The notes beneath the pieces were generated by a model. The model was not told where the DNA came from and made no database searches. It worked only from the letters and a program-made list of their open reading frames with translations. Shown here in pieces: positions 33,129 through 56,283 of a stretch of 64,000 nt of DNA; positions within the stretch are counted from its first letter, which is position 1; each line of letters begins with the position of its first letter. The translations under genes and the position numbers were made by a program. The DNA comes from a virus (lineage: Duplodnaviria > Caudoviricetes), in IMG/VR virus record IMGVR_UViG_3300037400_002591, positions 1 through 64,000 of that record; one strand, given 5' to 3'.

Positions 33129-33701
33129 TTAATCCTCCTTATAGGTATCCATTTCTATTTTTTTATTTTTAACATCTTCAAGTATTTGCTCTAATGATAC
33201 TGGATAATTATTATGAGCATCTAAACATACACAATACATATATGGATTATCATTATAGAATTTACTTTGTTGGTGAGTGTGTCCATATATGTTAATTAAA
33301 TGTTTTGCCCATGGTTTATCATCATCATAATTTGCGGTAATAGTTGGATAATGGCATAGCCAGAAATAATATTTTCCAATTTTAATCTCTTTTGCATCAT
33401 CAATAGATACTATATTAGGGCAAGTTTTATAAAGTTCAATTCTAGTATCTGTGTCATGATTACCAACAAAAATATGAATTTTTCCATTAAGTCTTTTAAT
33501 ACACTCAAGTCCATGTTCATTATCATTAAGCATTACATCTCCAAGATGATAGACTTCATCTTCTGGGTCTATTATTTCATTCCAATTACGAATGATAGCT
33601 TCATCATGTTCTTGAATTGAATTAAAACCTCTAGGACTTCAAAGAAAATCTTTTATATGTCCAAAATGAGTGTCTGACACAAACCAATATTTCTTTTCCA
33701 T
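33129..33701 (-). CDS. calcineurin-like metallophosphoesterase (1 TGA-Trp)
   Basis: SDTHFGH, HLGD, GNHD, YGHTH. Confidence 0.9.
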
Positions 33702-33702: not shown

Positions 33703-34155
33703 TTATTCCACCTCCAATATTTCTGTAAATCCTTCATCAAGAGTTGGTCTAGTTAAAGAATTAAACATATTTACAACAGCATCTTCAGGAACAAGTGCAC
33801 GACCAGTTCTTTGAGCATTTCTTTGTAATATGGTGTCAAGTGGTGTAGTAAAATATATACCAATAATTTCATTAGGTTTCTTTGTTAATCTACTAAATAG
33901 TTTATTGCGGGCTGCCGCATTTAAAGATGTTTGGTCAACATAAAAATCTTTATTATCTGCGATTGCCGCATTGATTTGTTTAATAAATTCATTATAGACT
34001 TCTTTTTCTTTTGAAAAATATTCATCTGTGTCTTTTAATAAACTAAATCTTATTTTATCTCTTGATATAACTATTTCATTTTCTTTCAAATGATTTTGAA
34101 TATAAGTGCTTTTTCCACAGCCTGGAGCACCAATTACCATATACATTTTACTCAT
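33703..34155 (-). CDS. P-loop kinase (AAA_33, PNK-like)
   Basis: GAPGCGKST, SRDKIR, R.A.R.GRALVP. Confidence 0.85.
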   Translation of the reverse strand: MSKMYMVIGAPGCGKSTYIQNHLKENEIVISRDKIRFSLLKDTDEYFSKEKEVYNEFIKQINAAIADNKDFYVDQTSLNAAARNKLFSRLTKKPNEIIGIYFTTPLDTILQRNAQRTGRALVPEDAVVNMFNSLTRPTLDEGFTEILEVE

Positions 34156-34525
34156 TAATATCAACCTCCTTAACTCTATGACCACAATCATTAGACCAGT
34201 TGCTATTCCAACATTTTCCATTTACATTAAATGGACAACTACTACAAGAGCAATCAAGTAAATCTTTAATAGCAATTCTATTGCCATCTACAAATCTACC
34301 TAAATTATATTCTTGTTTAAAATCTTCAATATCATATCCACCTATTTCGCGGATTTCCGCATGATTTACTTCTTGTTTACAATACATACAGTATAATTTT
34401 TTTAAATGTCCACCTTCTCTTTCTTGACCTTTCTTCCTTTGTACGGGAATTCCTTCTCGTCCACATTGTGTGCAGAAAAATCTACTTGGTGTCATATTAT
34501 AAAATTTTGCCATATTTTTCATCAT
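34148..34525 (-). CDS. Cys-rich hypothetical protein
   Basis: CTQC, HLKKLYCMYC, CSSCPF. Confidence 0.6.
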   Translation of the reverse strand: MMKNMAKFYNMTPSRFFCTQCGREGIPVQRKKGQEREGGHLKKLYCMYCKQEVNHAEIREIGGYDIEDFKQEYNLGRFVDGNRIAIKDLLDCSCSSCPFNVNGKCWNSNWSNDCGHRVKEVDINE

Positions 34526-34598: not shown

Positions 34599-35810
34599 TT
34601 AATTATTTCCATATTTAGAAGTTAAATAGTAATTTGATACTGCTTTAAATGAATTTACTCCATCTGCAGTTCTTAATACTACACCTTCGCGGTAATCGCC
34701 ATCTATAACAGAATTTCCATCTGCATATGCTACCATTTCGTCTATTGAGTTTGGTAATTTAAAATGTTCATCTAAGATTGGAACGCAAGGTATATTATAA
34801 GTATTTGTTAATATTTCTGTCATTTCTCTTGGGTTTAATCTTTTTGTAGTGCCATCTTTGTAACCAAATATTAAGTTAAACGCTTTGAAGTCTACATTAT
34901 CCATATGATAATCTCTTTGTTGAACTGATTTTCCATATGTTTCTCCTTGTATTGTTACGAATTCAAATTCATTATGAGTTTCTAATATATTTTTTAATAC
35001 TTCTTCTGCATTATATTTTATTGCCATTTCAGTATATACATTAGTTTCATAAAATAATTTTTCTTCTTTTTCTGGTTTATCAAAGCATACATTTCTTGAA
35101 CATACATAGAATTCATATTTATTTCTTTTTAATCTTTTCATTGTAAAAGTTGTTGATGTTCCATCTACTTTTTCAGTTACAAACCATTCTGTGTCGTCTG
35201 GTGGGAATAATTGAGGTAAATTTTGTACTCTTTCTTCATCAGTTTTAACTACCCAGCTAGGCCAGAATGCTGCTTTTTTATCTCTTTTATTTCCTAAGAA
35301 TAAGAATAATAATTTTTTACCCCAAGTTCTAGCATATAACCATTGAACTAATTTATTAGTTTTAAATAATTTTGCGTGTCTTTGAGCCATTCTTTTATAT
35401 TTATCAACTGATGCTTTTCTTTTATTATCTTCAACAACAGAATATTTAACTCCTAATGTTTCAGTTAAGAAATCTCCAACTTCGTATGCATTAATATCCC
35501 AACCAAAATCTTCAAAAGACATTAATAACCCTTGAGAAATCATTAAACCTTTGCCACCAAAAGTATATTTTTGAGTTTTTACTTTATAATGTTTTGGTGC
35601 TAAAAATGCAAAAGTTTCTGTTTCAGGCACTTTACTATCTATTTCAAAATATACGGCTTTATCTCCAGCTTGGAAAGTTCCTTTTCTAGTCATAACTCTC
35701 CATCCACCGACTACTGCCGCCTCGCAATTATCAGAACCTACTATTGGTTCTATACGGTCTATATTAACTACATAACAAAGTTCACGTTGTTTTGTACGAG
35801 GGTTTATCAT
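34599..35810 (-). CDS. RNA ligase, DRB0094/Rnl5-type
   Basis: N-terminal OB-like (IEPI.GSD..E..GW..YFEIDS), TEKVDGTS motif I, QGE, FNL, EGVV, FKAVS. Confidence 0.88.
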   Translation of the reverse strand: MINPRTKQRELCYVVNIDRIEPIVGSDNCEAAVVGGWRVMTRKGTFQAGDKAVYFEIDSKVPETETFAFLAPKHYKVKTQKYTFGGKGLMISQGLLMSFEDFGWDINAYEVGDFLTETLGVKYSVVEDNKRKASVDKYKRMAQRHAKLFKTNKLVQWLYARTWGKKLLFLFLGNKRDKKAAFWPSWVVKTDEERVQNLPQLFPPDDTEWFVTEKVDGTSTTFTMKRLKRNKYEFYVCSRNVCFDKPEKEEKLFYETNVYTEMAIKYNAEEVLKNILETHNEFEFVTIQGETYGKSVQQRDYHMDNVDFKAFNLIFGYKDGTTKRLNPREMTEILTNTYNIPCVPILDEHFKLPNSIDEMVAYADGNSVIDGDYREGVVLRTADGVNSFKAVSNYYLTSKYGNN

Positions 35811-42916: not shown

Positions 42917-42972
42917 AAGAAGTAGACAGCAAAAGACTGTATCTAATATAATCATTTGTGAACCGCTTCTTG
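42917..42972 (+). ncRNA. stem+ACAGCAA small RNA, copy 1
   Basis: AAGAAGT-AG-ACAGCAA...GCTTCTT-G. Confidence 0.55.
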
Positions 42973-43373
42973 TGTTTTATGAAAGATAAGGCTAAAGATA
43001 AAAAGAAGCTCTGAAGATAGAAAGGTCTATCATATTTATGATTTTTATTGAGGCTCCGTTAAGTGATTTCACACTTTGGATAGTTTATATATTCCTCAAC
43101 AATATATAGATTAGAAAGATGGTCGGAAAATCAATAGAAAAAGTAAATAAAATGCGGGGATCGCCGTCCGTCAGAATGGAATTTTATCTCTTATTGGAAG
43201 TAAAAATGAGAATAAAGAATGAGCTGCGGTAGCCTGCCTAGTGGCTACAACAATCTGGACATGCGGATTGAAGAGCGACGACCGCGCAATTAAATTATAT
43301 TAAAGAGGTAGTAAAAATTACCTTTATAGATAATAAAATAAGCCTCTTTTCTTAATTCTATGGGAGTGATAAT

Positions 43374-43730
43374 ATGAAAGTAGTAAAGTGGATACATCCA
43401 AATGAATTAGATGAACAAAAAGAAGTTTACTATTGCGGATTTGGACGTAGTTATATAAATAAATATATAAAAGCAGATTATGATGAAAATTATGAAGATG
43501 CTATAATAAAAGAATTAGTAGATAATCAATATATTATATGTGGTGATACTCATCAATATATGTGTTTGCCCGTTTTTGAAGATGATGAATATGTAATGTT
43601 ATCAATGAGAAAATGGGGAGAAGTTATGGCAAAAGCAATGAATTTGATTGAAGGTTTAAATAAATATCAATATACAGATTTTTATTTAGTAAGTCTATGT
43701 AAAAAAGAAGAAAAGTTGCCTATTAAGTAA
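43374..43730 (+). CDS. hypothetical protein
   Basis: ORF with RBS. Confidence 0.6.
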   Translation: MKVVKWIHPNELDEQKEVYYCGFGRSYINKYIKADYDENYEDAIIKELVDNQYIICGDTHQYMCLPVFEDDEYVMLSMRKWGEVMAKAMNLIEGLNKYQYTDFYLVSLCKKEEKLPIK

Positions 43731-43787
43731 TGCTATTGATTATTTTTAAAAAATATAATATAATATAAATGTAATAAAGAAAGGGAA

Positions 43788-44099
43788 GTGATATTAATGG
43801 AAGTTTTTTTAAGTATGAATAGATATATTTATAATAAATTATTAGAAGAATATCCTAATTGTATAGACATTAGAGAAAATGTTGAAAATTATGAATGGAT
43901 GGTAGAGCAAGATGGAAATAAATATATAGGATATTTTGATAATTTAGATACATTTGATAAAATGATTTCAAATATCTTTCCTAATATAAAATATATTGCA
44001 GAAATAAATCATAGTGATAAAGATATTGAAATTAAAAATATAGATTATTCAGCAGATATTCATGGAGATGGAACGATTGGAAAAAGGAGAGTGAATTAA
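43788..44099 (+). CDS. hypothetical protein
   Basis: ORF after promoter-like AT tract. Confidence 0.55.
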   Translation: MILMEVFLSMNRYIYNKLLEEYPNCIDIRENVENYEWMVEQDGNKYIGYFDNLDTFDKMISNIFPNIKYIAEINHSDKDIEIKNIDYSADIHGDGTIGKRRVN

Positions 44100-44101
44100 A
44101 A

Positions 44102-44320
44102 ATGGCTAAAAGAAAAGGTAAGTCAGGTAGCGGAGAAGGGCATTTTATAATTACCCAAGCAAACCTAGATAAAAAAGGAAAAACTAATAAGAAATTAAAA
44201 AGAAATCCTATGGCTTCTAAGTATTTAACTGTAAAAGGTAGAGAATTAAAAGACGCAGGAGAAGCAGCATATAAAGAAAATATGACTAAGCATAGAGAAA
44301 GAATGAAACAAGCCTCATAA
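44102..44320 (+). CDS. basic hypothetical protein
   Basis: ORF with GGAG RBS. Confidence 0.55.
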   Translation: MAKRKGKSGSGEGHFIITQANLDKKGKTNKKLKRNPMASKYLTVKGRELKDAGEAAYKENMTKHRERMKQAS

Positions 44321-44326
44321 TAGGAG

Positions 44327-44557
44327 GTGAGTTTTATGGCTATGCATAAAGCGATTAAAAGTGGAAAAGAACATAGAGTAGAATATGGTACAAAAGGACA
44401 ACCATATTGTAAGGCTGTTGATAAGACTTGCAGAAATCATGGCGGAAGAAGTGGTGGTGCTGCGAATCAATGTCTGTGGTGTTTAGGCAATAGAATAAAT
44501 AAATATAAAAATATGGACAAAATAGCCAAAAAAGAGATTAGAGATTTTCAAAGATAA
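44327..44557 (+). CDS. small Cys/His hypothetical protein
   Basis: CRNHGG..CLWC. Confidence 0.6.
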   Translation: MSFMAMHKAIKSGKEHRVEYGTKGQPYCKAVDKTCRNHGGRSGGAANQCLWCLGNRINKYKNMDKIAKKEIRDFQR

Positions 44558-44629
44558 ATACATAAGGTGGTTGGTCAGAGCCGTGTGCAGAAAGCACCTT
44601 TATAAAAACGGGGTCACGGCATTATATAT

Positions 44630-44706
44630 CGCGGGGTGGACCAGTGGTCTAAGTCGTCAGGCTCATAACCTGAAGGTCGTAGGTTCGAATCCTACTCCCG
44701 CAACCA
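44630..44706 (+). tRNA. initiator tRNA-fMet(CAT)
   Basis: C1:A72 mismatch, TCAGG-CTCATAA-CCTGA, CCA. Confidence 0.92.
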
Positions 44707-44986
44707 TTGATTATTAGAGGCGGACAAGGCTTTGGCAGGTGAAACAGACTGGTGGGACGCGAGTGGCCTCTTCTTATATATGTTCTGTACTCGAAACCTA
44801 GGGAGTATATTAGTAAGGCGGGAGGTTAATTCCTCCCCGCAGAACACCGATTTAAAAAATATTTGATTTTTATAAAAAAATATAATATAATATATATAGA
44901 AAAGTTAAGAAAAAATAACTTTTGGGTAAAAATAGTAAAATTACCTACCATACTTTTCTAATAATAATAGAAAAGGAGAAAATATT

Positions 44987-45397
44987 ATGGAAACAAAAAT
45001 ATGCACAAAATGTGGTAGAGAATTACCATTAGATATGTTTAATTGAAGAAATAAAGAAAAAGGGACAAGAAGAGCTGATTGTAAAGAATGTCATTCTGGT
45101 TATATGAGAAAAAAATATCAAGAAAATAAAGATATTATTGCAGATATGAAAGCTAGTCAAGGATGTGCAAAATGCGGAGATACAAGAAGCTATGTTCTAG
45201 ATTACCATCATATTGACCCTAATACAAAAGTAGAAGGAATTGCAAGAATGGTTAGTAATCATTATACTTCTTTAAATGAAGAAACCCTTAAAGAAATTAA
45301 AAAATGTGTTGTTTTATGTGCAAATTGTCATAGAGAATGGCATTATTTAAAAGAAAGAAATAATGAATTAGCATTTGAAGATTACATCAATAGTTAA
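44987..45397 (+). CDS. HNH endonuclease with Zn ribbons (1 TGA-Trp)
   Basis: CTKCG..CKEC; CAKCG..LDYHH..LCANCHREWH. Confidence 0.85.
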
Positions 45398-45406
45398 TTC
45401 TTATAT

Positions 45407-45481
45407 TGCCGGGTGGTGAAGCGGTAACACAAACGGCTTTGAACCGTTCACGCGTTGGTTCGAATCCAACCCCGGCAGCCA
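45407..45481 (+). tRNA. tRNA-Gln(TTG)
   Basis: Cloverleaf, AACGG-CTTTGAA-CCGTT, CCA. Confidence 0.92.
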
Positions 45482-45582
45482 TTTAGTTAATTATTGGGAT
45501 ACTGCGGTGGTGATGTTCTAACCCATTTAAAAAAGTAACATAAAACCAGCCGAGCAGCAGGTGCATAAATGCTGTGTCTTAT

Positions 45583-45658
45583 GGGGAGTTAGCTCAGCTG
45601 GGAGAGCACCTGACCTGCAATCAGGAGGTCACGAGTTCGATCCTCGTACTCTCCACCA
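45583..45658 (+). tRNA. tRNA-Ala(TGC), C instead of U at position 33
   Basis: G3:U70 pair, CCTGA-CCTGCAA-TCAGG. Confidence 0.9.
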
Positions 45659-45758
45659 TTTAGATTATTATTGGTAATCTTGGGTAGTAGTAGATTTTAA
45701 ATGTTATTAAAGAGATAATTGAAAGATATTATATTCCATTAACAGCCATTTTATATAT

Positions 45759-45823
45759 GTCATAATAGTTTAATAAAAGAACGCCGTTTATCGGAAATGT
45801 GAGTGAAAGTCTCGCTTATGGCT
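45759..45823 (+). ncRNA. degenerate tRNA-like RNA with shortened anticodon arm
   Basis: GTCATAA/TTATGGC acceptor, D arm, CCG-TTTAT-CGG, GTGAG-TGAAAGT-CTCGC. Confidence 0.5.
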
Positions 45824-45959
45824 ACCTATATCACAAACCTTCCTATTACAATGTGATTATGCGGGCTTCAAAGCTCGCTATGCGGGAATCGGCTTGTTAA
45901 TCCTCAATCGAGGTATAAAGCTGTAGTCACCGATTCCCGCATAGGGGGTTTTGAAAAAT

Positions 45960-46382
45960 GGGGATGTTTAGGTTTCGACAGGAGTTGGCGAAAAGTTAGA
46001 ATACAAGTACTAGGCAGTTAGTTAAAAGGCAACAAATAAAAATAAACGGAAACTTATTTTCAAAAATTACTAATAAAGTTAAATCTTTATTCGCATTTAA
46101 TTGCGTAGCCTTCGCGTAAGGTTAAGTAACTTCTATGTTAAGTACCAGTAGCGGACAGGGAAACGCATAGTCGTATTAATGATTCAAGGACCGCCATTAT
46201 AGGTCAGCTATCTATGCCAGCCGCCTTTAATGACTTACTTATTTGCATAGACTTGCTCTTGAGATTTGTATATGGTAAAGAGTATAGATAGAACGGTATA
46301 CACAAAACTTGTAAGGTAAGAATGAGATTTCTAATTAGTAGTTGATTTTTGGACGCGGGTTCGAACCCCGCCATCTCCACCA
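45960..46382 (+). ncRNA. ssrA: tmRNA; tag (A)GNLFSKITNKVKSLFAFNCVAFA at 46048-46119
   Basis: GGGGATG..GGTTTCGAC 5' end; GACGCGGGTTCGAACCCCGCCATCTCCACCA 3' end; G3:U70; ATAAAC upstream of resume codon. Confidence 0.93.
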
Positions 46383-46385
46383 TAT

Positions 46386-46944
46386 GCAGGTGTAACTCAG
46401 TTGGTTAGAGTACTCGTCTGATTTCACAAACTATTATTGTTGGCTATTAAGATTATGTTAAATTCAAAACAAATAGGAAATATAACTGAATTAGAATGTA
46501 TGTTAGCATTTGTAAAATTAGGTTATAATGTATTAACTCCATACGGAGATTGCGAAAGATATGACTTTATAGCTGATGTAAATGGAAAGCTATTAAAAAT
46601 ACAAGTAAAAACATCTAGACCTTCTAGAACTAGTGAGGGCAGTATAGTATTTAATACTTCAAGTCAAACTACAAAAGAAGGAAAAATGGTTCATCATTCT
46701 TATGATGAAACACAGATAGATTACTTTATGACTTTTTATGATAACCAAGCTTATTTAATTCCTGTTAAGGAATGTAGTGTAAGAGAAAAAACTTTAAGAT
46801 TTGAGCCCCCAAAAAATGGACAAATCAAAGGAATAACTTTTGCACAAGAATATGAGCTAGAAAAGGTGGTGAATAAAATAGTCAACATATAGCATTGTAA
46901 AATCACGCGTGATGTCGGAGGTTCGAATCCTCCCACCCGCACCA
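46386..46944 (+). tRNA. tRNA-Ile(GAT) interrupted between positions 36/37 by a 482-nt insert (46423-46904)
   Basis: 5' half 46386-46422 ends CT-GAT; 3' half 46905-46944 AC-GCGTG-ATGTC-T arm-CACCCGC-ACCA. Confidence 0.8.
46455..46892 (+). CDS. PD-(D/E)XK endonuclease (group-I-intron-associated / I-Ssp6803I-like family)
   Basis: IGNITE..C..YDFIAD..KIQVKTS..IDYF...YLIP. Confidence 0.85.
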   Translation: MLNSKQIGNITELECMLAFVKLGYNVLTPYGDCERYDFIADVNGKLLKIQVKTSRPSRTSEGSIVFNTSSQTTKEGKMVHHSYDETQIDYFMTFYDNQAYLIPVKECSVREKTLRFEPPKNGQIKGITFAQEYELEKVVNKIVNI

Positions 46945-47179
46945 TAATTTGAATATTAGGTTAGCTTTTGTGACTATTAGTTAACATATATAGAGTAACT
47001 AAATTCCTAGTGAGTCAAAGTGGAATCGGTTCAATATCTAGTTAATATTGATTGGGTTGCACGAGCCTCAAGGGTAAGTACCAGTCGTGCTAGGGTGGTG
47101 AAATGCAAGAATCATGAGTTGCAGAGTAAGAAGCCGAACATTTAGGCGGGGATTACATTGAATAAAACCCGCTCCATAT

Positions 47180-47254
47180 ACGCTTGTAGTCTAATGGTTA
47201 GGGCGCACGGCTTATATCCGTGTTATCGGGGTTCAAATCCCTGCGAGCGTACCA
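47180..47254 (+). tRNA. tRNA-Ile(TAT)
   Basis: CACGG-CTTATAT-CCGTG, A73, CCA. Confidence 0.85.
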
Positions 47255-47434
47255 ATTAATGATATTTTAATTATTTTCAAAGAGTTTTTCATTTTATTCT
47301 CTGCGTCAAAAATAAAATGCTTCCTTCTTTCTAGAGCAGGTTATCTGGTGTAAATACGCATAGCTCTTTTATATACATTTTTGTTGATTTTATTTAAAAA
47401 ATATAATATAATAATAATGTAATAAAAAAGGAAA

Positions 47435-47860
47435 GTGATAAATATGGAAGAATTTTTTAAAAAAGAATATGATAATTTTGATAGTTATGAATATCATTTT
47501 GTGGACAAAGTTTTAAAAGAAATATTTGGCAAAAGACAAATGATAAAAAGATATTCGTTAGCAGGAGAAGGAATATTTAATCTCCTATATATAGATAATT
47601 ACATTTATGAATTTAGATTTAAAAAAATTAAATCTTTACCTGTTAGTGATGGTAAAAAAGCATTTAGAGATGCTAAAAAAGATGAGATTATTGATGCGGT
47701 TGCCGCAACATTAAGTAAATATAATTTAGATTTTGCTATCACAGGTGGAAAATTCATATCTTTTAAAGATAGAAACTATTTAATTCAAATAGAGATAGTT
47801 AAAAAAATAAAAGAGCCATCTAATCTTGGAAAAGTTAAAATAGATGGAGAATGGATATAA
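47435..47860 (+). CDS. hypothetical protein
   Basis: ORF after TTGATT/TATAAT promoter. Confidence 0.6.
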   Translation: MINMEEFFKKEYDNFDSYEYHFVDKVLKEIFGKRQMIKRYSLAGEGIFNLLYIDNYIYEFRFKKIKSLPVSDGKKAFRDAKKDEIIDAVAATLSKYNLDFAITGGKFISFKDRNYLIQIEIVKKIKEPSNLGKVKIDGEWI

Positions 47861-47868
47861 AAAATTAA

Positions 47869-47897
47869 TTGATTTTTTATAAAAATAATGATATAAT
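47869..47897 (+). promoter_or_regulatory. sigmaA-type promoter upstream of small RNA copy 2
   Basis: TTGATT-17-TATAAT. Confidence 0.75.
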
Positions 47898-47914
47898 AAA
47901 TATGTAAAATAAAT

Positions 47915-47997
47915 AAGGCATACACAGCAAAGTTTTTGGTAAATAATTAGGTCTGCAAATCCCGATTTAGATGGTTCAATCCCATTGCTATGCCTTG
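47915..47997 (+). ncRNA. stem+ACAGCAA small RNA, copy 2, with tRNA-Cys-like interior
   Basis: AAGGCAT-AC-ACAGCAA..TGGTAAA..CTGCAAA..ATGG-TTCAATC-CCAT-TGCT-ATGCCTT-G. Confidence 0.65.
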
Positions 47998-48019
47998 TAT
48001 AAAAAGAATAAAAAGTTTA

Positions 48020-48516
48020 ATATAGTGAGGGCTGTGTCACTCACACCAAGTTATAGTTTTACTGGTAGATAGACCACACCGTTTAGTGAGGCTTGGGCGT
48101 AAGAAACCTCACCGCCGCTATGGTGAAAGAGATAGATGGTTGCTTAGCTATTGCTTATCCATAACTGAAGGAATAGTAAAAACTAATACTACTTAATTAG
48201 TAGTATTCTAATAATATACAAAAGAAGAGAGGTAAAAGGTAGAGATTATTCAATAGTGATATGACTAAAATAAACTCCTTGGATAGGGTGAGACATATCT
48301 CAACAGACCCGAAAAAACCTTTATATTATTAGAATAGTGCTAATTAAGCATGATACTTACTGCTCAAGAAGTAGATAAGTCCTATTACAGAGAAATCTGT
48401 AAATGTTAGCTCATTGACCAAGTGTTGAAGGAGCGGAGATTACACAAAATGCGTATTCATATAGGTGAATGGCAGGACGAAACCACCTAAAAGTCATTTA
48501 TAAAGCATTCGTCCAT
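48020..48516 (+). ncRNA. large structured ncRNA candidate (ROOL-like size and context)
   Basis: ~500 nt without a credible ORF; helices GTGAGG/CCTCAC, AATACTACT/AGTAGTATT, TACAGA-GAAA-TCTGTA; family not verified. Confidence 0.5.
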
Positions 48517-48523
48517 TTAATAT

Positions 48524-48599
<76 letters not shown>

Positions 48600-48602
48600 T
48601 AT

Positions 48603-48678
48603 GCGGAAGTAGCTCAATTGGTAGAGTTCCTGCCTTCCAAGCAGGCTGTTGCGGGTTCAAGCCCCGTCTTCCGCTCCA
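48603..48678 (+). tRNA. tRNA-Gly(TCC)
   Basis: CCTGC-CTTCCAA-GCAGG, U73, CCA. Confidence 0.93.
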
Positions 48679-48818
48679 TTTAAAATTATTGATAATATTT
48701 AAAAAATATTATATAATATATATGTAAATAAAAAAGACCATAATAAAATTCTTGTTGGTATCTCAGTGGCACAGAGAGTAAAGAGTGTTGATTGCTACAA
48801 CCGCCAATATATTATTAT

Positions 48819-48893
48819 GGCCGGTTCGTCAAGAGGTTAAGACACAACCCTTTCACGGTTGCATCGCGGGTTCGAATCCCGCACCGGCTACCA
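48819..48893 (+). tRNA. tRNA-Glu(TTC)
   Basis: CAACC-CTTTCAC-GGTTG, CCA. Confidence 0.92.
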
Positions 48894-48921
48894 TATATTT
48901 ATGAAAAGGAGCTGATTAATT

Positions 48922-49548
48922 TTGGCATACATTTATAAAATAATAAATAAGAAAAATAATAAAATTTATATTGGAAAGACAGAATTTAGTATTGAAAAGA
49001 GATGGCAGGAACATCTTAGAGATAGTAAAAAGAATTTAGATAGACCTCTTTACAGAGCAATGAATAAATATGGAATTGAAAATTTTGATATTGAACAAGT
49101 AGAAAAAACAGATAATCCAGTAGAAAGAGAACAATATTGGATTGAATATTATGGCTCTTTTAAATATGGATATAATGCAACAAAAGGCGGAGATGGCAGG
49201 TCATATTTAGATTATGATTTAGTAATTTCAACTTATAAAGAATTAAAAAATGCAACTGAAACTGCTAAAAAATTAGGAATTTATGAAGAAAGTGTCCGAA
49301 ATATTTTAAAAGCTCGTAATGAATATATTTATTCTAGTTCAGAGGTTAATCAAATGAAGTTAAGTCATATAATTAAACAATATAATTTGCAAGGGCAATA
49401 TATTCAAAGTTTTCCATCTGCAAGAGCAGCTGCGGAAAGCATAAAAGGGAAAAATTGTTCACACGGAGTTATTTCTCATATAACAGATGTGTGTAAAGGA
49501 ATACGAAAAACTGCATATAGTTTTATATGGAAATTTGAAGAAGAATAG
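48922..49548 (+). CDS. free-standing GIY-YIG homing endonuclease with NUMOD1-like tail
   Basis: YIYKI.N..IYIGKT..RW.EH..E..GYN.T.GG; QYNLQG..FPS...A. Confidence 0.88.
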   Translation: MAYIYKIINKKNNKIYIGKTEFSIEKRWQEHLRDSKKNLDRPLYRAMNKYGIENFDIEQVEKTDNPVEREQYWIEYYGSFKYGYNATKGGDGRSYLDYDLVISTYKELKNATETAKKLGIYEESVRNILKARNEYIYSSSEVNQMKLSHIIKQYNLQGQYIQSFPSARAAAESIKGKNCSHGVISHITDVCKGIRKTAYSFIWKFEEE

Positions 49549-49551
49549 CTA

Positions 49552-49660
49552 TTGAGTATGGCGGAATAGGTAGACGCTGTAAGTTAAGGAACGATTAGAA
49601 AGGCTCGGACAAAGTGTACATAAAACCTTTCATGTAAGGTGCAAATCCTTATTACTCAAT
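49552..49660 (+). ncRNA. tRNA-like RNA with intact acceptor/D/T arms and expanded non-canonical middle
   Basis: TTGAGTA/TACTCAA, TGGCGGAATAGGTAGACGC, GTAAGG-TGCAAAT-CCTTAT; no CCA. Confidence 0.6.
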
Positions 49661-49680
49661 TAATATATTTTAATATAAAT

Positions 49681-49741
49681 AAGACGCGAACAGCAAAGCA
49701 ATTATCACTTTTTTAGGGAAAAAGCAAGAGATTGCGTCTTG
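49681..49741 (+). ncRNA. stem+ACAGCAA small RNA, copy 3
   Basis: AAGACGC-GA-ACAGCAA..CTTTT-TTAGGGA-AAAAG..GCGTCTT-G. Confidence 0.65.
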
Positions 49742-49745
49742 ATTT

Positions 49746-49820
49746 GGTGCGTTGGTCCAACGGTTACGACGCTAGACTGTCACTCTAGCAACAGGAGTTC
49801 AACTCTCCTACGCACCGCCA
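49746..49820 (+). tRNA. tRNA-Asp(GTC)
   Basis: CTAGA-CTGTCAC-TCTAG, G73, CCA. Confidence 0.92.
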
Positions 49821-49839
49821 TTTAATATAATAAAAGGAA

Positions 49840-50544
49840 GTGAGTCAGGTGAATATAGTAATACCTTTTAGAAACACATGCGGGACTGACGAGCTTGATA
49901 TGTGTATCAAATTAATCAAAAAGAATTTAAAAATTAATTATGATAACATTTATATTATTGGGGATGAGGTTAATCAATTTAAAGACTCAGTTATTAATAT
50001 TGTTGTAAACGAACAAAAATATAATAAGTGGTTAGATAGCAACTTTTTAGTAAAAACTTATATTGAAACAATTGGAAATCCTTTTATTTTATTTAATGAC
50101 GATTTCTTTTTAACTGAAAATGTTGATACTATTCCTTGTTATTATTTTGATACTTTACAAAATAGGTCTTTAACAACTTATATTATCAACGAAAAAATAA
50201 ATAAACTTAGATTATCAACATATGGGCTAAATATTGACTCATTCTTAAAAAGATTTGGTAACTTTGAAAATTATGAAGTTCATATTCCTATGATAATAGA
50301 TTATCCAAGTGTTATGTATGAAGCTATTGAACAATGTAATATAAACGATTGTCCTGCTTTAAAAAGGACAATGTATATAAAATTATGTGAAGAAAAAAAT
50401 TTTTCTAACACAATAGTAGAAATCAAACACGATGTTAAATTTAATGAACCTTTAAGAGTAATGCAATACCCATTCTTTTCTCTAACTGATAGAGCAGAGT
50501 TTGATGTATTTAGAGATGCTCTTGAAGAAATAGCAAAACAATAA
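49840..50544 (+). CDS. hypothetical protein, glycosyltransferase-like
   Basis: IVIPFR..NIYIIGD..FILFNDDFF (DxD-like). Confidence 0.5.
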   Translation: MSQVNIVIPFRNTCGTDELDMCIKLIKKNLKINYDNIYIIGDEVNQFKDSVINIVVNEQKYNKWLDSNFLVKTYIETIGNPFILFNDDFFLTENVDTIPCYYFDTLQNRSLTTYIINEKINKLRLSTYGLNIDSFLKRFGNFENYEVHIPMIIDYPSVMYEAIEQCNINDCPALKRTMYIKLCEEKNFSNTIVEIKHDVKFNEPLRVMQYPFFSLTDRAEFDVFRDALEEIAKQ

Positions 50545-50548
50545 ATGT

Positions 50549-50644
50549 AGGGGCTTAGTGTAATGGTAGCACAGCGGTCTTCAAAACCGTAAAGACGGGT
50601 CTCCAAAACCCGGGGTGTGGGTTCGAGTCCTACAGCCCCTGCCA
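50549..50644 (+). tRNA. tRNA-Trp with two tandem anticodon arms (TCA then CCA)
   Basis: AGGGGCT..GCGGT-CTTCAAA-ACCGT-AAAGA-CGGGT-CTCCAAA-ACCCG-GGGT-GTGGG-TTCGAGT-CCTAC-AGCCCCT-G-CCA. Confidence 0.85.
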
Positions 50645-50649
50645 ATTTT

Positions 50650-50723
50650 AGGGGTGTCGTTCAATGGTAGGACTCTGGTCTCCAAAACCAGGTATCTGGG
50701 TTCAAATCCTAGCACCCCTGCCA
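50650..50723 (+). tRNA. tRNA-Trp(CCA)
   Basis: CTGGT-CTCCAAA-ACCAG, A1:U72, G73, CCA. Confidence 0.93.
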
Positions 50724-50758
50724 TTTAGATTATTAAGGCGTTGCCGCGAGGTGATATT

Positions 50759-51394
50759 ATGAGTAAAAAAACTAAAGAAATGATTGATAAAGTTTTTGAA
50801 AAAGAAACAAAAAGAAGTGAAGAAATTACTAATCTAATAATAGAATTTTATAATAATGAAGATAATAACACTAATGAAAAATGAAATGAATTATATGATA
50901 ATATAGTTTCTATTATGCATATTTCATTAGTTCAGACTTATAAAATTACTATGCAAGAAGCTAGTAAAATATATGATTTTTTTCCAAAAGAAGACACTTC
51001 TCATATAAAATATAAAGATGTTGAACCGTATACATATACAGAAGATGATTTAACTCTTGAAAAAAGAATTTTAAAACATATAAAAAATGCAAAACAAAAA
51101 GATTTTAATAAATCAAATCGCAATGCATTAATTTCAAAAGAGGTTAGAATTTTAGACAATGAAACTATGATAGTTAATCAAAAACTTATTTATAAAAAAA
51201 TGAAACAAATAGAGGGTGTATATGTTTGTTTAAATCCTGGAGGCGGATGCGGTAGAAGCTGTTGTAATACAGGTGTTAACGAATGAATGCCGATTGGAGA
51301 TATTCCATCACCACCACCTTATCATACAAACTGCCAGTGTTCTTTAGATTATGTTGATGATTATATAGAAGAACCAGAAGATATAGAAGAATAA
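50759..51394 (+). CDS. protein with C-terminal Mu gpF-like motif (2 TGA-Trp)
   Basis: Readthrough yields CCN..NE(W)MPI...PPYHTNCQCSL. Confidence 0.65.
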
Positions 51395-51395
51395 A

Positions 51396-51424
51396 TTGAT
51401 TTTTTATAAAAATTATTATATAAT
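51396..51424 (+). promoter_or_regulatory. sigmaA-type promoter of large ncRNA candidate
   Basis: TTGATT-17-TATAAT. Confidence 0.75.
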
Positions 51425-51449
51425 ATATATGTAAACATTAAGAAATAAA

Positions 51450-52330
51450 TTAAATGTGGAAACGAATGTATCTCCGTTCTGTCTTGCTCTTTAAGAGTGA
51501 GGCGGGATGCTGAGCTAGGGAGCAAAGGCATTCCATCAGACCGTTTGTGGGTTGGGTCTGCGAAAAGTTCTTTGAAAATAAAATTATTTGTAACTCAAAT
51601 AAGGATAGGTTTCGTCCTAAGAGTGGACTCTTACACCACCTCAAAAGGGTAGGTCATTAGTGCGGAAGCACGAGGGAGAGTCGCTGTCGGAATAACAAGC
51701 ATAAGGTGCTATTGATTTCGTGGTTCATTTAACAATGTGAGAGTTGGCGTCTCAAACAGGTTAAACGGCTGAGCCTTGGCGGTTGAAATAAGAAAGCAAT
51801 AGGCAACTAGCATAAATCCGTTGTAGCAAATGGCAAGTAGAACCTTATATGTTGAAGGTAATCAATCCTTCCTATGCGGAAATGCCAGGTCGTCGGCCAA
51901 CGAACTGGTGCATAGTAGCTTTATACTTATTCATTATATTATTGAGATGTGCTGGAAGATGCATCTCTGCGGAAGCAAGGTTGGTGGTAACGTTGACCGG
52001 CCGCCGCATATACTAATAACAGTAGACGCTGTAAGTAGCTGTGGTCATAGCCTATGAAAAAAGGATAAAAAGTTGATAAACTTAAGTGAGCAGGCGAAAA
52101 TATAATGAGTATAAGGAAAGTTGTGTGCGATTGGGTGCGAGCTCCAATACGACCTTAGCCGGGCGTAACACAGGACGACTGTGTGGAGAAGTGAGCACTG
52201 GGTGGTTGAATCAGGTCAAACTGAGTATAACAATGTGGCATATGGGCATATAAGAAAACCACTATGAAAAAGATTTGGTGATTACAGACGATTAGATGAA
52301 TGGTCTGTCTTATAAACTCCAGTCTATGCT
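51450..52330 (+). ncRNA. giant structured ncRNA candidate (GOLLD-like size and context)
   Basis: ~880 nt, markedly more GC-rich than flanks, no credible ORF, own promoter, inside tRNA island; family not verified. Confidence 0.55.
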
Positions 52331-52467
52331 ATGTTTGTAGAGTATTGGTCTCTACCTTGTGACTGAATATGCGGTTATTCTGTTGGAAGACTTGTGGGTA
52401 TGCGAAATTCCCACCAAATAATTTTATTTTCAAGGAACTTTTTAGAACCTTGAAAGAGAGTGATAAT

Positions 52468-52797
52468 ATGGAAAATTTAAAATGGTATGTTTTAAATTAT
52501 GATTTTAATGGAAAAAAAATAGAAAATTTTAACATTTTTAGAAGTGTTAGATTTGTAGAAGGCGTTCAAGATTTATTAGAACATTATATTACTTTTGAAG
52601 ATTTTGTTGAAAAATTAGAAAGTGAACTTAGATATGCTTTCTGGAGTAAAAGAGAGTATGAAATATCAGTTAGTGATGCTTTTGAAACTGACTTAAATAA
52701 ATATGAAAAAATAGATGTATATTCTCAAGTTAAACCAAATGTGAGAATATTAGCAAAATATATAATAGACAACTATAACGATGGGCTAAGCTGCTAA
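52468..52797 (+). CDS. hypothetical protein
   Basis: RBS before MENLKWYV. Confidence 0.6.
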   Translation: MENLKWYVLNYDFNGKKIENFNIFRSVRFVEGVQDLLEHYITFEDFVEKLESELRYAFWSKREYEISVSDAFETDLNKYEKIDVYSQVKPNVRILAKYIIDNYNDGLSC

Positions 52798-53126
52798 GTG
52801 CCTAAACCTATCTAAAGTAGCGTTTATGAGGTCATTGCCAATAGGGCTGATAGGAGTCGCTATTAAGTGATGAACTCGTATATAAGCGGAAGAGATAAAA
52901 CTTTGTTATAAATAGTAGAAAATTCTCATATTATCGATCTCGAACTCTTCCGCTTATACACGAGGTCATCCTGATATCGAGATAAAATATCGTGTGCATC
53001 TAGTATTGGAATATGTTTAAAATGGGACACAAAGCATATTCGTTCTAATTTATTAACACAACTCGATTATATGTGCGTAATAAATTAACTAGATGCTATT
53101 TTTATAGAATAAAGGAGCTGATTATA

Positions 53127-53543
53127 ATGATTTTAAAATTAAATAAGTATTTAAAAGAATTAGGTATAGATGAACATAATTGGCTTTTTGATAAAGAAAC
53201 ACAAGAAATAGATGATAGATATAAACCTGATGAAGAAGGATTTGTAGATGCAGAACATTTTAATTTAGATTATTCATTAAGTTTATATATTTATTCACAA
53301 TTATGCTATTTCCGCGACCATTGTTTAGTAGGACATCCTGCTTATATGACTTTTGAACAATGGAAAGATATTATTGATAAAATGATTGAAGCATTTAAAC
53401 TTCAAATATTAGAAGATAATACTTGGGATAGATTTCAATATCCTAATGAGGCGGAAAGAGTTAAAGCAAGTAAAAACAGACAAAAAAAGATTAATTATGG
53501 TATGAGATTATTTATTAAATACTATAATCATCTTTGGTATTAA
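53127..53543 (+). CDS. hypothetical protein
   Basis: AAGGAG RBS before MILKLNK. Confidence 0.6.
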   Translation: MILKLNKYLKELGIDEHNWLFDKETQEIDDRYKPDEEGFVDAEHFNLDYSLSLYIYSQLCYFRDHCLVGHPAYMTFEQWKDIIDKMIEAFKLQILEDNTWDRFQYPNEAERVKASKNRQKKINYGMRLFIKYYNHLWY

Positions 53544-53547
53544 TTCT

Positions 53548-53638
53548 GCGAAGTTGGGTGAGTTGGCTTAAACCAGCAGTTTGCTAAACTGCCGATCGAG
53601 TTTTCGGTCCACTAGTTCGAATCTAGTACTTCGCGCCA
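53548..53638 (+). tRNA. tRNA-Ser(GCT)
   Basis: GCAGT-TTGCTAA-ACTGC, long variable arm, G73. Confidence 0.92.
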
Positions 53639-53639
53639 T

Positions 53640-53715
53640 GGGTCGTTAGCTCAGTTGGTAGAGCACAGCACTTTTAATGCTGGGGTCCAGAGTTCAAACC
53701 TCTGACGACCCACCA
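53640..53715 (+). tRNA. tRNA-Lys(TTT)
   Basis: CAGCA-CTTTTAA-TGCTG, CCA. Confidence 0.93.
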
Positions 53716-53718
53716 TAT

Positions 53719-53922: not shown

Positions 53923-54339
53923 ATGGCATTATATAATGCAATACAAGGTAATTTAGGACTTGGTAAAGCAATAGAATATTTTACAAGTCAAAATATTCCT
54001 GTTGCTATTCCATTAAATGATACTCAAAAATATGATATTGTTGCTGATTTTGATGGAAAACTTCAAAAAATATCTATAAAAACAAGTAGGTATCAACCAA
54101 GAGAAAATGTTTTTGAAGTGATGTTAAAAAATACAGGTGGTAGTTCTGGAAATAATAAAATTAGATTATTTGACAATAATAATTGTGATTATATTTTTAT
54201 TTATACTGCTAATGAAGATTTATATTTAATTCCATCTAAAGAAATAACTGCAACAAATTCTATTTGTGTAGGAAATAAATATGTTGAATATAAAGTATTT
54301 ATAAAAACATTGTCAGATTTTGATGAAGAAGTCAGATAA
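53923..54339 (+). CDS. free-standing PD-(D/E)XK endonuclease (same family as 46455..46892)
   Basis: QGNLG..YDIVAD..KISIKTS..CDYIF..YLIP. Confidence 0.8.
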   Translation: MALYNAIQGNLGLGKAIEYFTSQNIPVAIPLNDTQKYDIVADFDGKLQKISIKTSRYQPRENVFEVMLKNTGGSSGNNKIRLFDNNNCDYIFIYTANEDLYLIPSKEITATNSICVGNKYVEYKVFIKTLSDFDEEVR

Positions 54340-54407
54340 TTTTATCTATTATTGATTTTAATAAAAATATATGATATAATAATTATATAATAAAGGAAGT
54401 GAATGAA

Positions 54408-54881: not shown

Positions 54882-54882
54882 T

Positions 54883-56210: not shown

Positions 56211-56283
56211 ATAGATATAGTTTAATAGTAAAACTACCGCTTGATACACGGTAATAGAAGTGCAATTCTTCTTATCTATGCCA
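56211..56283 (+). tRNA. atypical tRNA (GAT-centred loop, A1:U72, G73, CCA)
   Basis: ATAGATA/TATCTAT acceptor; TACCG-CTTGATACA-CGGTA; non-canonical TGCAATT T loop. Confidence 0.55.

What the first reader, a model, noticed from the sequence alone, without database searches (positions are those of the whole stretch)
46386..46944. tRNA-Ile split at the anticodon by a ribozyme-less, hairpin-closed endonuclease element
Seen: removing 46423-46904 restores a canonical-length tRNA with loop CU-GAU-AC. The insert is almost entirely a PD-(D/E)XK ORF (about 32 nt before it, 12 nt after), leaving no room for a group I core. Instead 46419-46448 pairs with 46877-46905 over ~26 bp, so the anticodon itself pairs with the insert's 3' end and the anticodon stem continues as a long helix. 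Established: this nuclease family (I-Ssp6803I) normally sits in group I introns of tRNA genes; anticodon-intron pairing is typical of protein-spliced archaeal/eukaryal tRNA introns, and helix-closed IVSs in bacterial 23S rRNA are cut by RNase III. Inference: a new kind of protein-dependent tRNA intron or IVS, perhaps excised by a dsRNA nuclease and sealed by the phage RNA ligase; the helix would also mask the ORF's initiation region. Caveat: A3-C70 and a U-U pair in the anticodon stem could mean the tRNA is decaying.
Basis: partly seen in the sequence, partly recalled or inferred. Interest (0 to 1): 0.85.

Follow-up and report, generated by a model that had tools for sequence, protein, structure and literature searches.

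The report
Ribozyme-less endonuclease insert splitting phage tRNA-Ile
A phage isoleucine-tRNA gene is cut in two just after its anticodon by a 482-base mobile insert that holds only a homing-endonuclease gene and an RNA helix pairing with the anticodon; over 100 phage tRNA genes carry such inserts, so phages may splice tRNAs with proteins, or the insert may simply use the tRNA as a shell.

Summary
Removing 46423-46904 restores a tRNA-Ile(GAU). The insert is 32 nt of leader, a 145-aa I-Ssp6803I-family (PF11645) ORF and 12 nt of tail.

It is one of more than 100 related inserts in large phage genomes. This scan has reported the family before on other DNA. All sit between tRNA positions 36 and 37, in tRNA-Asn, Ile, Lys, Ala and Met(CAU) genes. 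The last three insert bases are always complementary to the anticodon, and the ends form a covarying rod selected at RNA level (G-U:A-C = 67:2).

It is not a group I intron, a bulge-helix-bulge intron or a known self-cleaving ribozyme. RNase III geometry does not fit.

New here:
- Uninterrupted alleles exist, fixing the junction at 36/37.
- The window's two stem mismatches come from a chimera of two natural tRNA-Ile alleles, not from decay.
- RNA ligases in carrier phages are lineage traits, not insert-specific.

No RNA data could be obtained. My reading is protein-dependent splicing (about 0.45). The main rival is an unspliced endonuclease mRNA carried in a natural tRNA scaffold (about 0.35).

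The parts
46386..46422 (+). 5' exon of tRNA-Ile(GAU): acceptor, D arm, anticodon-stem 5' strand, C32, U33 and G34-A35-U36
   Evidence: Sequence; ARAGORN intron mode. Identical to the 5' exon of L040 and to the uninterrupted allele in L157.
46423..46454 (+). Insert leader (32 nt), the 5' strand of the closing rod; no Shine-Dalgarno sequence
46455..46892 (+). Homing-endonuclease ORF (145 aa plus a TAG stop) of the I-Ssp6803I / PDDEXK_5 family; its last codons and stop codon lie in the rod
   Evidence: Pfam E 4e-31; 2OST E 1.9e-10 with the D...Q-V-K residues aligned; model pLDDT 91.8, TM 0.75-0.78 to 2OST.
46893..46904 (+). Insert tail (12 nt) ending AUC, complementary to the anticodon GAU; the last base is C, not G
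46905..46944 (+). 3' exon of the tRNA: A37, C38, anticodon-stem 3' strand, variable loop, T arm, acceptor, A73 and CCA
   Evidence: 100% identical to the 3' exon of L041 and to the first 13 bases of it that I printed for the uninterrupted allele L154.
46419..46448 (+). Rod, 5' strand (U33, anticodon, leader)
   Evidence: MFE and centroid fold; family covariation.
46877..46905 (+). Rod, 3' strand (end of ORF, stop codon, tail, A37)
34599..35810 (-). Context: phage RNA ligase (PF21189 OB domain plus PF09414), a candidate sealing enzyme
33703..34221 (-). Context: AAA_33 P-loop kinase beside the ligase, a candidate 5'-OH polynucleotide kinase
   Evidence: E 1.4e-17.
33129..33533 (-). Context: weak calcineurin-like phosphoesterase match, a possible 2',3'-phosphate healing enzyme
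   Evidence: E 5.8e-4, below Pfam's cut-off.
56211..56283 (+). Second, uninterrupted but atypical tRNA-Ile(GAU) in the same array
   Evidence: ARAGORN score 104.6; T loop TGCAATT; lowest Rfam tRNA score in the window, tied with two tRNA-Ser genes (51.9 bits).
53923..54339 (+). Free-standing PDDEXK_5 paralogue with its own Shine-Dalgarno sequence, lying between tRNA genes
   Evidence: E 1.1e-13.

Best explanation
Shown: this is a mobile, homing-endonuclease-only intervening sequence. It lies exactly between positions 36 and 37 of a phage tRNA-Ile(GAU) gene. It belongs to a large family found in tRNA-Asn, Ile, Lys, Ala and Met(CAU) genes of 85-190 kb phages. It is transcribed in the tRNA's own direction. 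Its 5' leader and 3' tail, including the last ORF codons, form a rod of about 25-30 bp. The rod stacks on the anticodon stem: U33 pairs with A37, the anticodon pairs with the last three insert bases, and the rest of the rod follows. The rod is kept by selection on the RNA strand.

Inferred: the tRNA halves fold into the cloverleaf, and the rod presents the two junctions 3 bp apart across the helix. A protein endonuclease cuts both junctions. This could be the insert's own enzyme or an unidentified phage or host enzyme. The nicked anticodon loop is then sealed by an RNA-repair ligase. In this phage that would be the Rnl-type ligase with its neighbouring kinase and possible phosphoesterase; in others it would be RtcB. 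The product would be a working tRNA.

The endonuclease also drives homing into uninterrupted alleles. This copy is the product of such an event between two different tRNA-Ile alleles.
For: 1. Removing the insert at 36/37 gives a cloverleaf in 107 of 108 elements. Uninterrupted alleles fix the junction: 29 of 31 Schiekvirus records carry an intact tRNA-Asn with exons identical to those of EFP01, and intact L154 and L157 alleles match the window's exons.
2. Anticodon-tail covariation: GAU/AUC, GUU/AGC, UUU/AAA, UGC/GCA, CAU/AUG. Pair +2:-5 shows five pair types and no mismatch in 63 sequences. The distal rod also co-evolves.
3. G-U:A-C = 67:2 in the first seven pairs, which points to selection on the sense RNA.
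4. In-silico spliced tRNAs score as well as intact neighbours: 117.4 (n=70) against 114.7 (n=394). The discriminator base fits each identity in the copies I read (A73 in Ile and Lys, G73 in Asn), and the Ala class keeps G3-U70.
5. In most arrays the split gene is the only gene for that anticodon.
6. None of the 94 unique ORFs is frameshifted. Seven carry in-frame TAG, three of them in phages where I saw a CUA suppressor tRNA, which argues for long residence.
7. Heal-and-seal enzymes are present in the window. Nineteen of 21 carrier genomes have an RtcB or a PF09414 match, though five of those PF09414 matches fall below Pfam's cut-off.
8. There is no ribozyme alternative.
Against: - No RNA evidence.
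- No bacterial or phage endonuclease is known that cuts both strands of an RNA helix 3 bp apart.
- The insert's protein has a DNA-nuclease fold. Its nearest structures are I-Ssp6803I, Hjc resolvases and restriction enzymes, and no tRNA-splicing endonuclease appears among its fold matches.
- No EndA homologue in 22 carrier genomes.
- The ligases are lineage traits. EFP01's RtcB is found in 23 Enterococcus phage records, nearly all without the insert, and RtcB in 594 phage records overall.
- Exon integrity can reflect recent homing. The same insert sits in alleles that differ by 24%.
- A few copies look non-functional as tRNAs: the window's chimera has two stem mismatches, and L078 has a GCU anticodon in an Asn-type body.
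- An earlier copy of this claim in the scan was later priced low. The grounds were not shown to me.
Confidence: 0.45

Rival explanations
1. Not spliced: a natural tRNA scaffold for a selfish gene. The endonuclease gene homes into the anticodon loop and sacrifices the tRNA. RNase P and RNase Z trim the tRNA ends out of the array transcript. The cloverleaf plus rod then protects the embedded endonuclease mRNA, as in the laboratory 'tRNA scaffold' for recombinant RNA (PMC3753655). Pairing the anticodon-loop bases removes a single-stranded site open to nucleases and to synthetase binding.
For: - It needs no unknown enzyme.
- It explains the orientation, the RNA-level rod and the folded halves through selection acting on the element itself.
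- The element is actively mobile. The same insert sits in divergent alleles, only 1 of about 30 Schiekviruses carries it, and the window copy is a chimera.
- Anticodon changes are tolerated in L078 and L056.
- Four arrays keep an extra uninterrupted copy.
- The ligases are not insert-specific.
Against: - The strict three-base complementarity to five different anticodons is stronger than a scaffold seems to need.
- The intronic ORFs lack Shine-Dalgarno sequences, while the free-standing paralogue has one.
- No decayed copies were found among 94 unique ORFs or 70 unique tRNAs, although my search favoured intact ORFs.
- Free-standing relatives manage without destroying a tRNA.
Confidence: 0.35
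2. A plain disruptive insertion in a dispensable, decaying tRNA gene. On this reading the helix is incidental, or serves only as a terminator or RNase III site for the endonuclease mRNA.
For: Two stem mismatches in the window copy. A second tRNA-Ile(GAU) exists in the window.
Against: - The mismatches are explained by a chimera of two natural alleles.
- The rod covaries across 63 unique variants.
- Exons score like intact tRNAs in 70 unique copies.
Confidence: 0.07
3. Self-splicing or self-cleaving RNA hidden in the ORF or the rod: an unrecognised ribozyme.
For: Classic group I introns do occur in these phages' tRNAs (L123 tRNA-Leu(UAA)). In the Asn and Lys classes the rod carries a conserved internal loop, (C/U)UGA opposite CUGAUG.
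Against: - Only 44 non-coding nucleotides.
- The insert ends in C or A or G by anticodon class (C in the Ile and Asn classes), never a fixed terminal G.
- The leader holds no complement to the 5' exon that could form a P1 pairing.
- No RF00028 or small-ribozyme match inside 17 inserts at E<=0.5, while the same search finds the neighbouring true group I intron at 49.9 bits.
- Synonymous-site identity is flat at 0.52-0.72 along the ORF.
- The window's class lacks the GA loop.
Confidence: 0.05
4. DNA-level role. The inverted repeat forms a hairpin or cruciform that copies the endonuclease's half-site and cut centre. It would serve mobility or immunity, not RNA processing.
For: In the hairpin, both exon-insert junctions fall where an I-Ssp6803I-like enzyme would cut: top strand after 36, opposite strand across from 33/34. 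The cleavage pattern is from my memory of Bonocora & Shub 2001. The fold is close to Hjc junction resolvases.
Against: G-U:A-C = 67:2 is the signature of one-strand RNA pairing, not of a double-stranded DNA palindrome. About 420 nt separate the arms.
Confidence: 0.03

Closest known systems
Group I intron of Synechocystis PCC 6803 tRNA-fMet encoding I-Ssp6803I (655 nt, 150-aa ORF; PMC1995217, PMC3384342)
   Same: Same endonuclease family (PF11645; 2OST is the best sequence and fold match). Same kind of target, a tRNA anticodon loop. Mobile by homing.
   Different: No ribozyme. The insert is 482 nt with only 44 non-coding, has no terminal G and no RF00028 match. It has a closing rod that pairs with the anticodon instead of P1/P10.
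Archaeal and eukaryal protein-spliced tRNA introns (EndA/Sen endonuclease plus RtcB or Trl1)
   Same: Anticodon-intron pairing that extends the anticodon stem. No ribozyme. RtcB or heal-and-seal ligases are at hand.
   Different: No bulge-helix-bulge. The junction is 36/37, not 37/38. No EndA homologue in 22 carrier genomes. The insert carries a homing-endonuclease gene. The setting is bacterial phages.
Free-standing homing endonucleases in phage tRNA clusters (T4 SegB, PMC13096335; PDDEXK_5 ORFs of My1, phi-pp2, Sf-FR1 and the window's own 53923-54339)
   Same: Selfish nuclease genes living in, and probably targeting, phage tRNA arrays. Distant members of the same protein family.
   Different: Those sit between tRNA genes or overlap a tRNA's 5' end and leave it intact. 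This clade sits inside the anticodon loop.
Helix-closed intervening sequences of bacterial 23S rRNA cut by RNase III
   Same: An insert closed by a long helix. Excision by protein.
   Different: rRNA fragments are not rejoined. RNase III's 2-nt stagger does not fit the 3-bp offset here.
SOS splicing of DNA transposons from animal mRNAs (AKAP17A, CAAP1, RTCB; PMC12779559)
   Same: A mobile DNA element is removed from RNA after its inverted ends pair, and an RtcB ligase joins the pieces.
   Different: An animal nuclear system acting on mRNAs. The factors have no known phage counterparts. This is an analogy only.
'Enigmatic' tRNA introns of Lak megaphages (PMC6784885)
   Same: Phage tRNA genes with conserved inserts of unknown splicing mechanism.
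   Different: As far as the text I read goes, those are not reported to encode PDDEXK_5 nucleases. One holds a tRNA-like sequence.
Engineered tRNA scaffold for recombinant RNA (PMC3753655)
   Same: Cargo RNA inserted in the anticodon arm and closed by a helix that continues the anticodon stem. It is processed and stabilised like a tRNA.
   Different: Man-made. Here the cargo is a translated mRNA and the shell was once, and may still become, a working tRNA.

Membership tests
Group I intron | Conserved catalytic core (P3-P9), detectable with Rfam RF00028 | tested here: not met
   No RF00028 match at E<=5 in 45700-47400, nor at E<=0.5 inside 17 related inserts. Positive control: the tRNA-Leu(UAA) intron at L123:2648-2845 scores 49.9 bits.
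Group I intron | Terminal G at the 3' end of the intron, and a P1 pairing of the 5' exon with an internal guide | tested here: not met
   The insert ends in C here. The last base is C or A in 63 of 63 unique relatives of the four main classes, and G only in the single Met(CAU) copy. On reading, the leader holds no complement to the 5' exon end.
Group I intron | Enough non-coding or constrained RNA to build a ribozyme | tested here: not met
   Only 32 + 12 nt lie outside the ORF. Synonymous-site identity is flat at 0.52-0.72.
Archaeal/eukaryal BHB tRNA intron | Two 3-nt bulges separated by a 4-bp helix at the splice sites | tested here: not met
   Pairing is continuous through 33:37, 34:-1, 35:-2, 36:-3 and +1:-4 with no bulges.
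Archaeal/eukaryal BHB tRNA intron | A tRNA-splicing endonuclease (PF01974) available | tested here: not met
   0 of 22 carrier phage genomes; the archaeal controls ring. Host genomes were not tested.
I-Ssp6803I / PDDEXK_5 homing endonucleases | PF11645 match above the curated cut-off | tested here: met
   108.3 bits against a cut-off of 26.1.
I-Ssp6803I / PDDEXK_5 homing endonucleases | Fold and catalytic residues of 2OST | tested here: met
   TM 0.75-0.78. The YD and QVK residues are aligned and identical and are invariant in 32 relatives.
I-Ssp6803I / PDDEXK_5 homing endonucleases | Cleaves the uninterrupted tRNA gene at the anticodon; mobility by homing | tested here: inconclusive
   Presence/absence polymorphism with identical exons, the same insert in divergent alleles and a chimeric copy all fit homing. 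Cleavage itself was not tested.
RNase III-excised intervening sequence | Cuts with a 2-nt 3' overhang in a long helix yield the functional ends | tested here: not met
   The junctions lie 3 bp apart, so a 2-nt stagger would leave an 8-nt anticodon loop (geometry).
Known small self-cleaving ribozymes (hammerhead, twister, HDV and others) | A match to the Rfam model inside the insert | tested here: not met
   None at E<=0.5 inside 17 inserts or in the window.
Spliced intron (any mechanism) | A joined mature RNA exists | not testable with these tools

The most novel reading that the evidence does not exclude
Bacteriophages have a protein-only tRNA splicing pathway. A rod that pairs with the anticodon presents both junctions 3 bp apart. 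An endonuclease cuts them; it may be the insert's own restriction-fold enzyme, working on an RNA copy of its DNA target. A phage or host RNA-repair ligase (RtcB, or Rnl with kinase and phosphatase) then reseals the anticodon loop.
Probability: 0.3. Interest if true: 0.95.

Novelty: new variant of a known kind. Interest (0 to 1): 0.72.

Why it matters
In bacteria and their viruses, tRNA introns are known only as self-splicing group I introns. A widespread intervening sequence made of nothing but a homing-endonuclease gene and a helix, lying in the anticodon loop, leads to one of two outcomes.

If it is spliced, it would be the first protein-dependent tRNA splicing outside archaea and eukaryotes. 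It would also link homing endonucleases, RNA-repair ligases and tRNA maturation.

If it is not spliced, it would be a natural tRNA scaffold that a selfish gene uses to be expressed from tRNA operons, at the price of a phage tRNA.

Either outcome is directly testable, because one carrier, Enterococcus phage EFP01, is a cultured isolate with insert-free sister phages.

Tried and rejected
- **Group I intron:** rejected. The same search found a true group I intron in a carrier phage's tRNA-Leu, so the negative result carries weight.
- **BHB/EndA splicing:** no bulges, and no EndA homologue.
- **RNase III:** the stagger does not fit.
- **Junctions other than 36/37:** a 35/36 junction would give a UUA stop anticodon in the Lys class. 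Uninterrupted alleles settle it at 36/37.
- **RNA ligase co-occurrence as evidence:** RtcB appears only in three carriers that lack any PF09414 match. But EFP01's RtcB is shared by insert-free Schiekviruses, and RtcB by 594 phage records. It is permissive, not diagnostic.
- **ORF-less mini versions of the rod:** none recognised. ARAGORN's short 'introns' in these arrays are other tRNA-like RNAs or parsing artefacts.
- **The ORF's 3' end as a relic copy of the 5' exon:** significant only in EFP01 (z about 7) and weakly in two others, so not general.
- **A 5'-half remnant upstream of the free-standing phi-pp2 ORF:** none seen.
- **Exon conservation as proof of function:** undermined. Whole tRNA genes, intact ones included, are far more divergent than their spacers between related arrays.
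- **Single-protein search of viral contigs:** found nothing. The alignment query worked.
- **Literature searches:** no description of this element found.

Full report
**What is in the window.** The window is part of a 79-kb IMG/VR phage record. It carries 24 tRNA genes plus a tmRNA. At 46386-46944 a tRNA-Ile(GAU) is split:
- The 5' half ends ...CUCGU-CU-GAU at 46422.
- The 3' half starts AC-GCGUG at 46905 and ends with an encoded CCA.
- ARAGORN in intron mode finds the gene.

The 482-nt insert has a 32-nt leader, a 145-codon ORF and a 12-nt tail.
- The ORF is PF11645 PDDEXK_5 (E 4e-31).
- It matches I-Ssp6803I (2OST) by sequence, with the YD and QVK residues conserved.
- Its AlphaFold model (pLDDT 91.8) has 2OST as best structural match (TM 0.75-0.78). 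Hjc junction resolvases, SPARDA nucleases and restriction enzymes follow. No tRNA-splicing endonuclease appears.
It starts at U33:A37 and runs through the anticodon.

**It is one member of a large family.**
- The protein has 875 relatives at E<1e-10 in the 5.8-billion-protein collection.
- Using an alignment of 32 of them (A1), I fetched 29 loci from viral contigs, 3 from genome assemblies and 80 from metagenomes.
- Splicing every candidate junction in silico and scoring with ARAGORN gave a cloverleaf, with the insert removed at 36/37, in 107 of 108 elements.
- Hosts are tRNA-Asn(GUU) (about 68), Ile(GAU) (about 20), Lys(UUU), Ala(UGC, with G3-U70) and one Met(CAU).
- Insert length is 450-485 nt, the leader 22-37 nt and the tail 9-15 nt.
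- The scan had already reported this family on other DNA.

**The junction is exact.**
- Of 31 Schiekvirus records, 29 lack the insert and carry an annotated tRNA-Asn. Only EFP01 has the insert.
- Alignment of the empty and filled sites shows insertion between T36 and A37, with exons 100% identical.
- For the window's class, uninterrupted tRNA-Ile genes matching its exons exist in four viral contigs.
- A 35/36 junction is excluded because it would give a UUA anticodon in the Lys class.

**The rod is real and is selected at RNA level.**
- In 63 unique leader/tail pairs, the pairs 33:37, 34:-1, 35:-2, 36:-3 and +1:-4 to +3:-6 are 91% paired in register, against 38-53% in shifted registers.
- Position 35:-2 reads U-G 41, A-U 16, U-A 2, G-C 2, C-G 1, with one mismatch.
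- Position +2:-5 shows five pair types and no mismatch.
- The last three insert bases follow the anticodon: AUC, AGC, AAA/AGA, GCA, AUG.
- The distal part, which contains the last ORF codons and the stop codon, co-evolves with the leader. Cognate duplexes average -13.5 kcal/mol and non-cognate ones -6.2. The cognate tail ranks in the top 5 of 63 in 52 cases.
- G-U pairs outnumber A-C oppositions 67 to 2 in the first seven pairs. That is the signature of pairing in the sense RNA rather than of a DNA palindrome.
- Asn- and Lys-type rods carry a conserved internal loop, (C/U)UGA opposite CUGAUG. It looks like tandem G-A pairs, as in a C/D box or kink-turn. The window's class has a nearly continuous helix instead.

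**What it is not.**
- *Group I intron:* 44 non-coding nucleotides, no fixed terminal G and no P1 guide.
  - There is no RF00028 match in the window or in 17 related loci at E<=0.5.
  - The same tool finds a genuine 208-nt group I intron in the tRNA-Leu(UAA) of a carrier phage at 49.9 bits.
- *Hidden ribozyme:* synonymous-site identity along the ORF is flat at 0.52-0.72, so nothing suggests an embedded one.
- *Small self-cleaving ribozyme:* none matches inside the inserts.
- *BHB intron:* there is no bulge-helix-bulge, and no EndA homologue in 22 carrier genomes.
- *RNase III:* a 2-nt stagger would leave an 8-nt loop, because the junctions are 3 bp apart.
  - From memory (Bonocora & Shub 2001; I could not retrieve the paper), that offset equals the 3-nt 3' overhang that I-Ssp6803I leaves around the anticodon on DNA.
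  - The base of the rod therefore copies one half-site and the cut centre of the enzyme's DNA target. This is an observation, not evidence that the enzyme cuts RNA.

- The window's 5' exon and insert are identical to those of L040, apart from one silent base near the end of the ORF. L040's tRNA is fully paired.
- The window's 3' exon is 100% identical to that of L041.
- Both parental alleles also exist uninterrupted, as L157 and L154.
- A3-C70 and U28-U42 are among the few paired positions where the two alleles differ.
- This copy is therefore a recombinant with the crossover within about 6 nt of the 3' junction. That is the kind of footprint expected from homing into a heterologous allele.
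- The window's other tRNA-Ile(GAU), at 56211-56283, is atypical (ARAGORN 104.6, T loop TGCAATT).

**Does the tRNA still matter?**
- In-silico spliced tRNAs (n=70 unique) score 117.4 on average, against 114.7 for 394 intact neighbours.
- In most 20-kb array neighbourhoods the split gene is the only one for its anticodon. The exceptions are the window, L126, L131 and L137.
- None of the 94 unique ORFs is frameshifted. Seven carry in-frame TAG codons, mostly at or near the conserved Tyr30 codon. Three of the seven lie in phages where I also saw a CUA suppressor tRNA, so the gene seems to have lived in recoded phages for some time.

These points are weakened in three ways:
- My searches favoured intact ORFs.
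- The same insert (98.6-100% identical, with flanks 98-100% identical) sits between exons that are only 68-84% identical.
- Intact tRNA genes in the same arrays are likewise far more divergent than their spacers.

Exon integrity may therefore reflect recent homing into live alleles.

**Ligases.**
- The window encodes an Rnl-type ligase (PF21189 + PF09414), an adjacent AAA_33 kinase and a weak phosphoesterase match.
- Among 21 other carrier genomes, 16 have a PF09414 match, some weak.
- Three carriers, all of which lack such a match, have RtcB.
- However, EFP01's RtcB is present at 95% identity or more in 23 Enterococcus phage records, almost all insert-free, and RtcB in 594 phage records overall.
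- Sealing enzymes are therefore available but are not specific to carriers.

**Verdict.** The element is a real and apparently undescribed variant of a mobile tRNA intervening sequence. Literature searches found nothing closer than the 'enigmatic' Lak phage introns.

Two readings remain:
- *Protein-dependent splicing (about 0.45).* It best explains the strict complementarity to five different anticodons and the family's long persistence. It lacks a known endonuclease.
- *Unspliced endonuclease mRNA in a natural tRNA scaffold (about 0.35).* It needs no new enzyme (compare PMC3753655). It explains the orientation, the rod and the folded halves through selection on the element itself.

SOS splicing in animals (PMC12779559) shows that excision triggered by paired inverted ends and sealed by RtcB exists elsewhere. 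No RNA data could be obtained. The EFP01 / phiSHEF16 pair offers a direct test.

Noticed in passing
window 45960-46382: Phage tmRNA (Rfam 76.6 bits; ARAGORN tag ending ...NCVAFA). It ends 3 nt before the split tRNA begins.
   Followed up: no
window 58149-58291: Match to part of the OLE RNA model (positions 441-590, 84.3 bits, above the gathering score), just after the tRNA array. This is unexpected in a phage. Another carrier, EFP01, has a full ROOL RNA near its array (L031:2133-2719, 264.8 bits).
   Followed up: no
window 50549-50644: A 96-nt tRNA with anticodon UCA (called SeC by ARAGORN), directly before tRNA-Trp(CCA). It may be a UGA suppressor or a sign of recoding.
   Followed up: no
window 33129-35810 (-): RNA repair cassette: an Rnl-type ligase with a PHA02142 OB domain, an AAA_33 kinase and a weak metallophosphoesterase match. 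An HNH/NUMOD4 endonuclease ORF lies nearby at 36706-37239 (-).
   Followed up: partly
L130:9400-11505 vs L126:8712-10760: Between two related arrays the spacers are 94-99% identical, apart from one unaligned 62-nt spacer. The intact tRNA genes between them are only 48-59% identical (Leu, Ala), and the split tRNA's exons 68-84%. tRNA genes behave as hypervariable cassettes. This may be an arms race with tRNA-targeting nucleases or with homing endonucleases.
   Followed up: partly
L123:2648-2845: A classic 208-nt group I intron after U34 of tRNA-Leu(UAA), in the same phage genome that carries a PDDEXK insert in tRNA-Ile (RF00028 49.9 bits, E 7e-12, just under the gathering score).
   Followed up: yes
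L013:1673-1740: HDV-like ribozyme match (RF02682, 38.4 bits against gathering 44, E 1e-3) starting right at the 3' end of a split tRNA-Asn that has no encoded CCA. It may process the 3' end.
   Followed up: no
L009, L025, L036, L086, L106, L108, L095 (endonuclease ORFs): In-frame TAG codons, mostly at or near the nearly invariant Tyr30 codon. I saw tRNAs with a CUA anticodon in three of these phages (L009, L025, L036). This points to TAG recoding, perhaps read as Tyr, or to regulated read-through of the endonuclease.
   Followed up: partly
L001:3395-3425 vs L001:2945-2976 (EFP01): The last ~22 nt of the EFP01 endonuclease ORF resemble the D arm and anticodon stem of its own 5' exon (local alignment z about 7). 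This is not general in the family.
   Followed up: partly
L143:4039-4700, L141:16632-16746, L133:17944-18068 and others: tRNA-like RNAs of 115-130 nt, with normal acceptor and T arms but an enlarged anticodon arm holding an ACAGCAA-like motif. They seem to be the same family that another first-stage note reports in this window (42917-58515).
   Followed up: no
L005:1204-1653 (phi-pp2), L004, L007: Distant free-standing PDDEXK_5 ORFs overlap the 5' part of the next intact tRNA gene. In phi-pp2 the ORF reads through the tRNA-Met 5' half and stops at U36-A37-A38 of the anticodon loop.
   Followed up: partly
L078:~960-1500 and L056:~960-1500: Two copies whose anticodon does not fit the tRNA body or the tail. 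L078 has GCU in an Asn-type body, which makes a perfect pairing with the AGC tail. L056 has GAU with an AGC tail, giving one A-G mismatch.
   Followed up: partly
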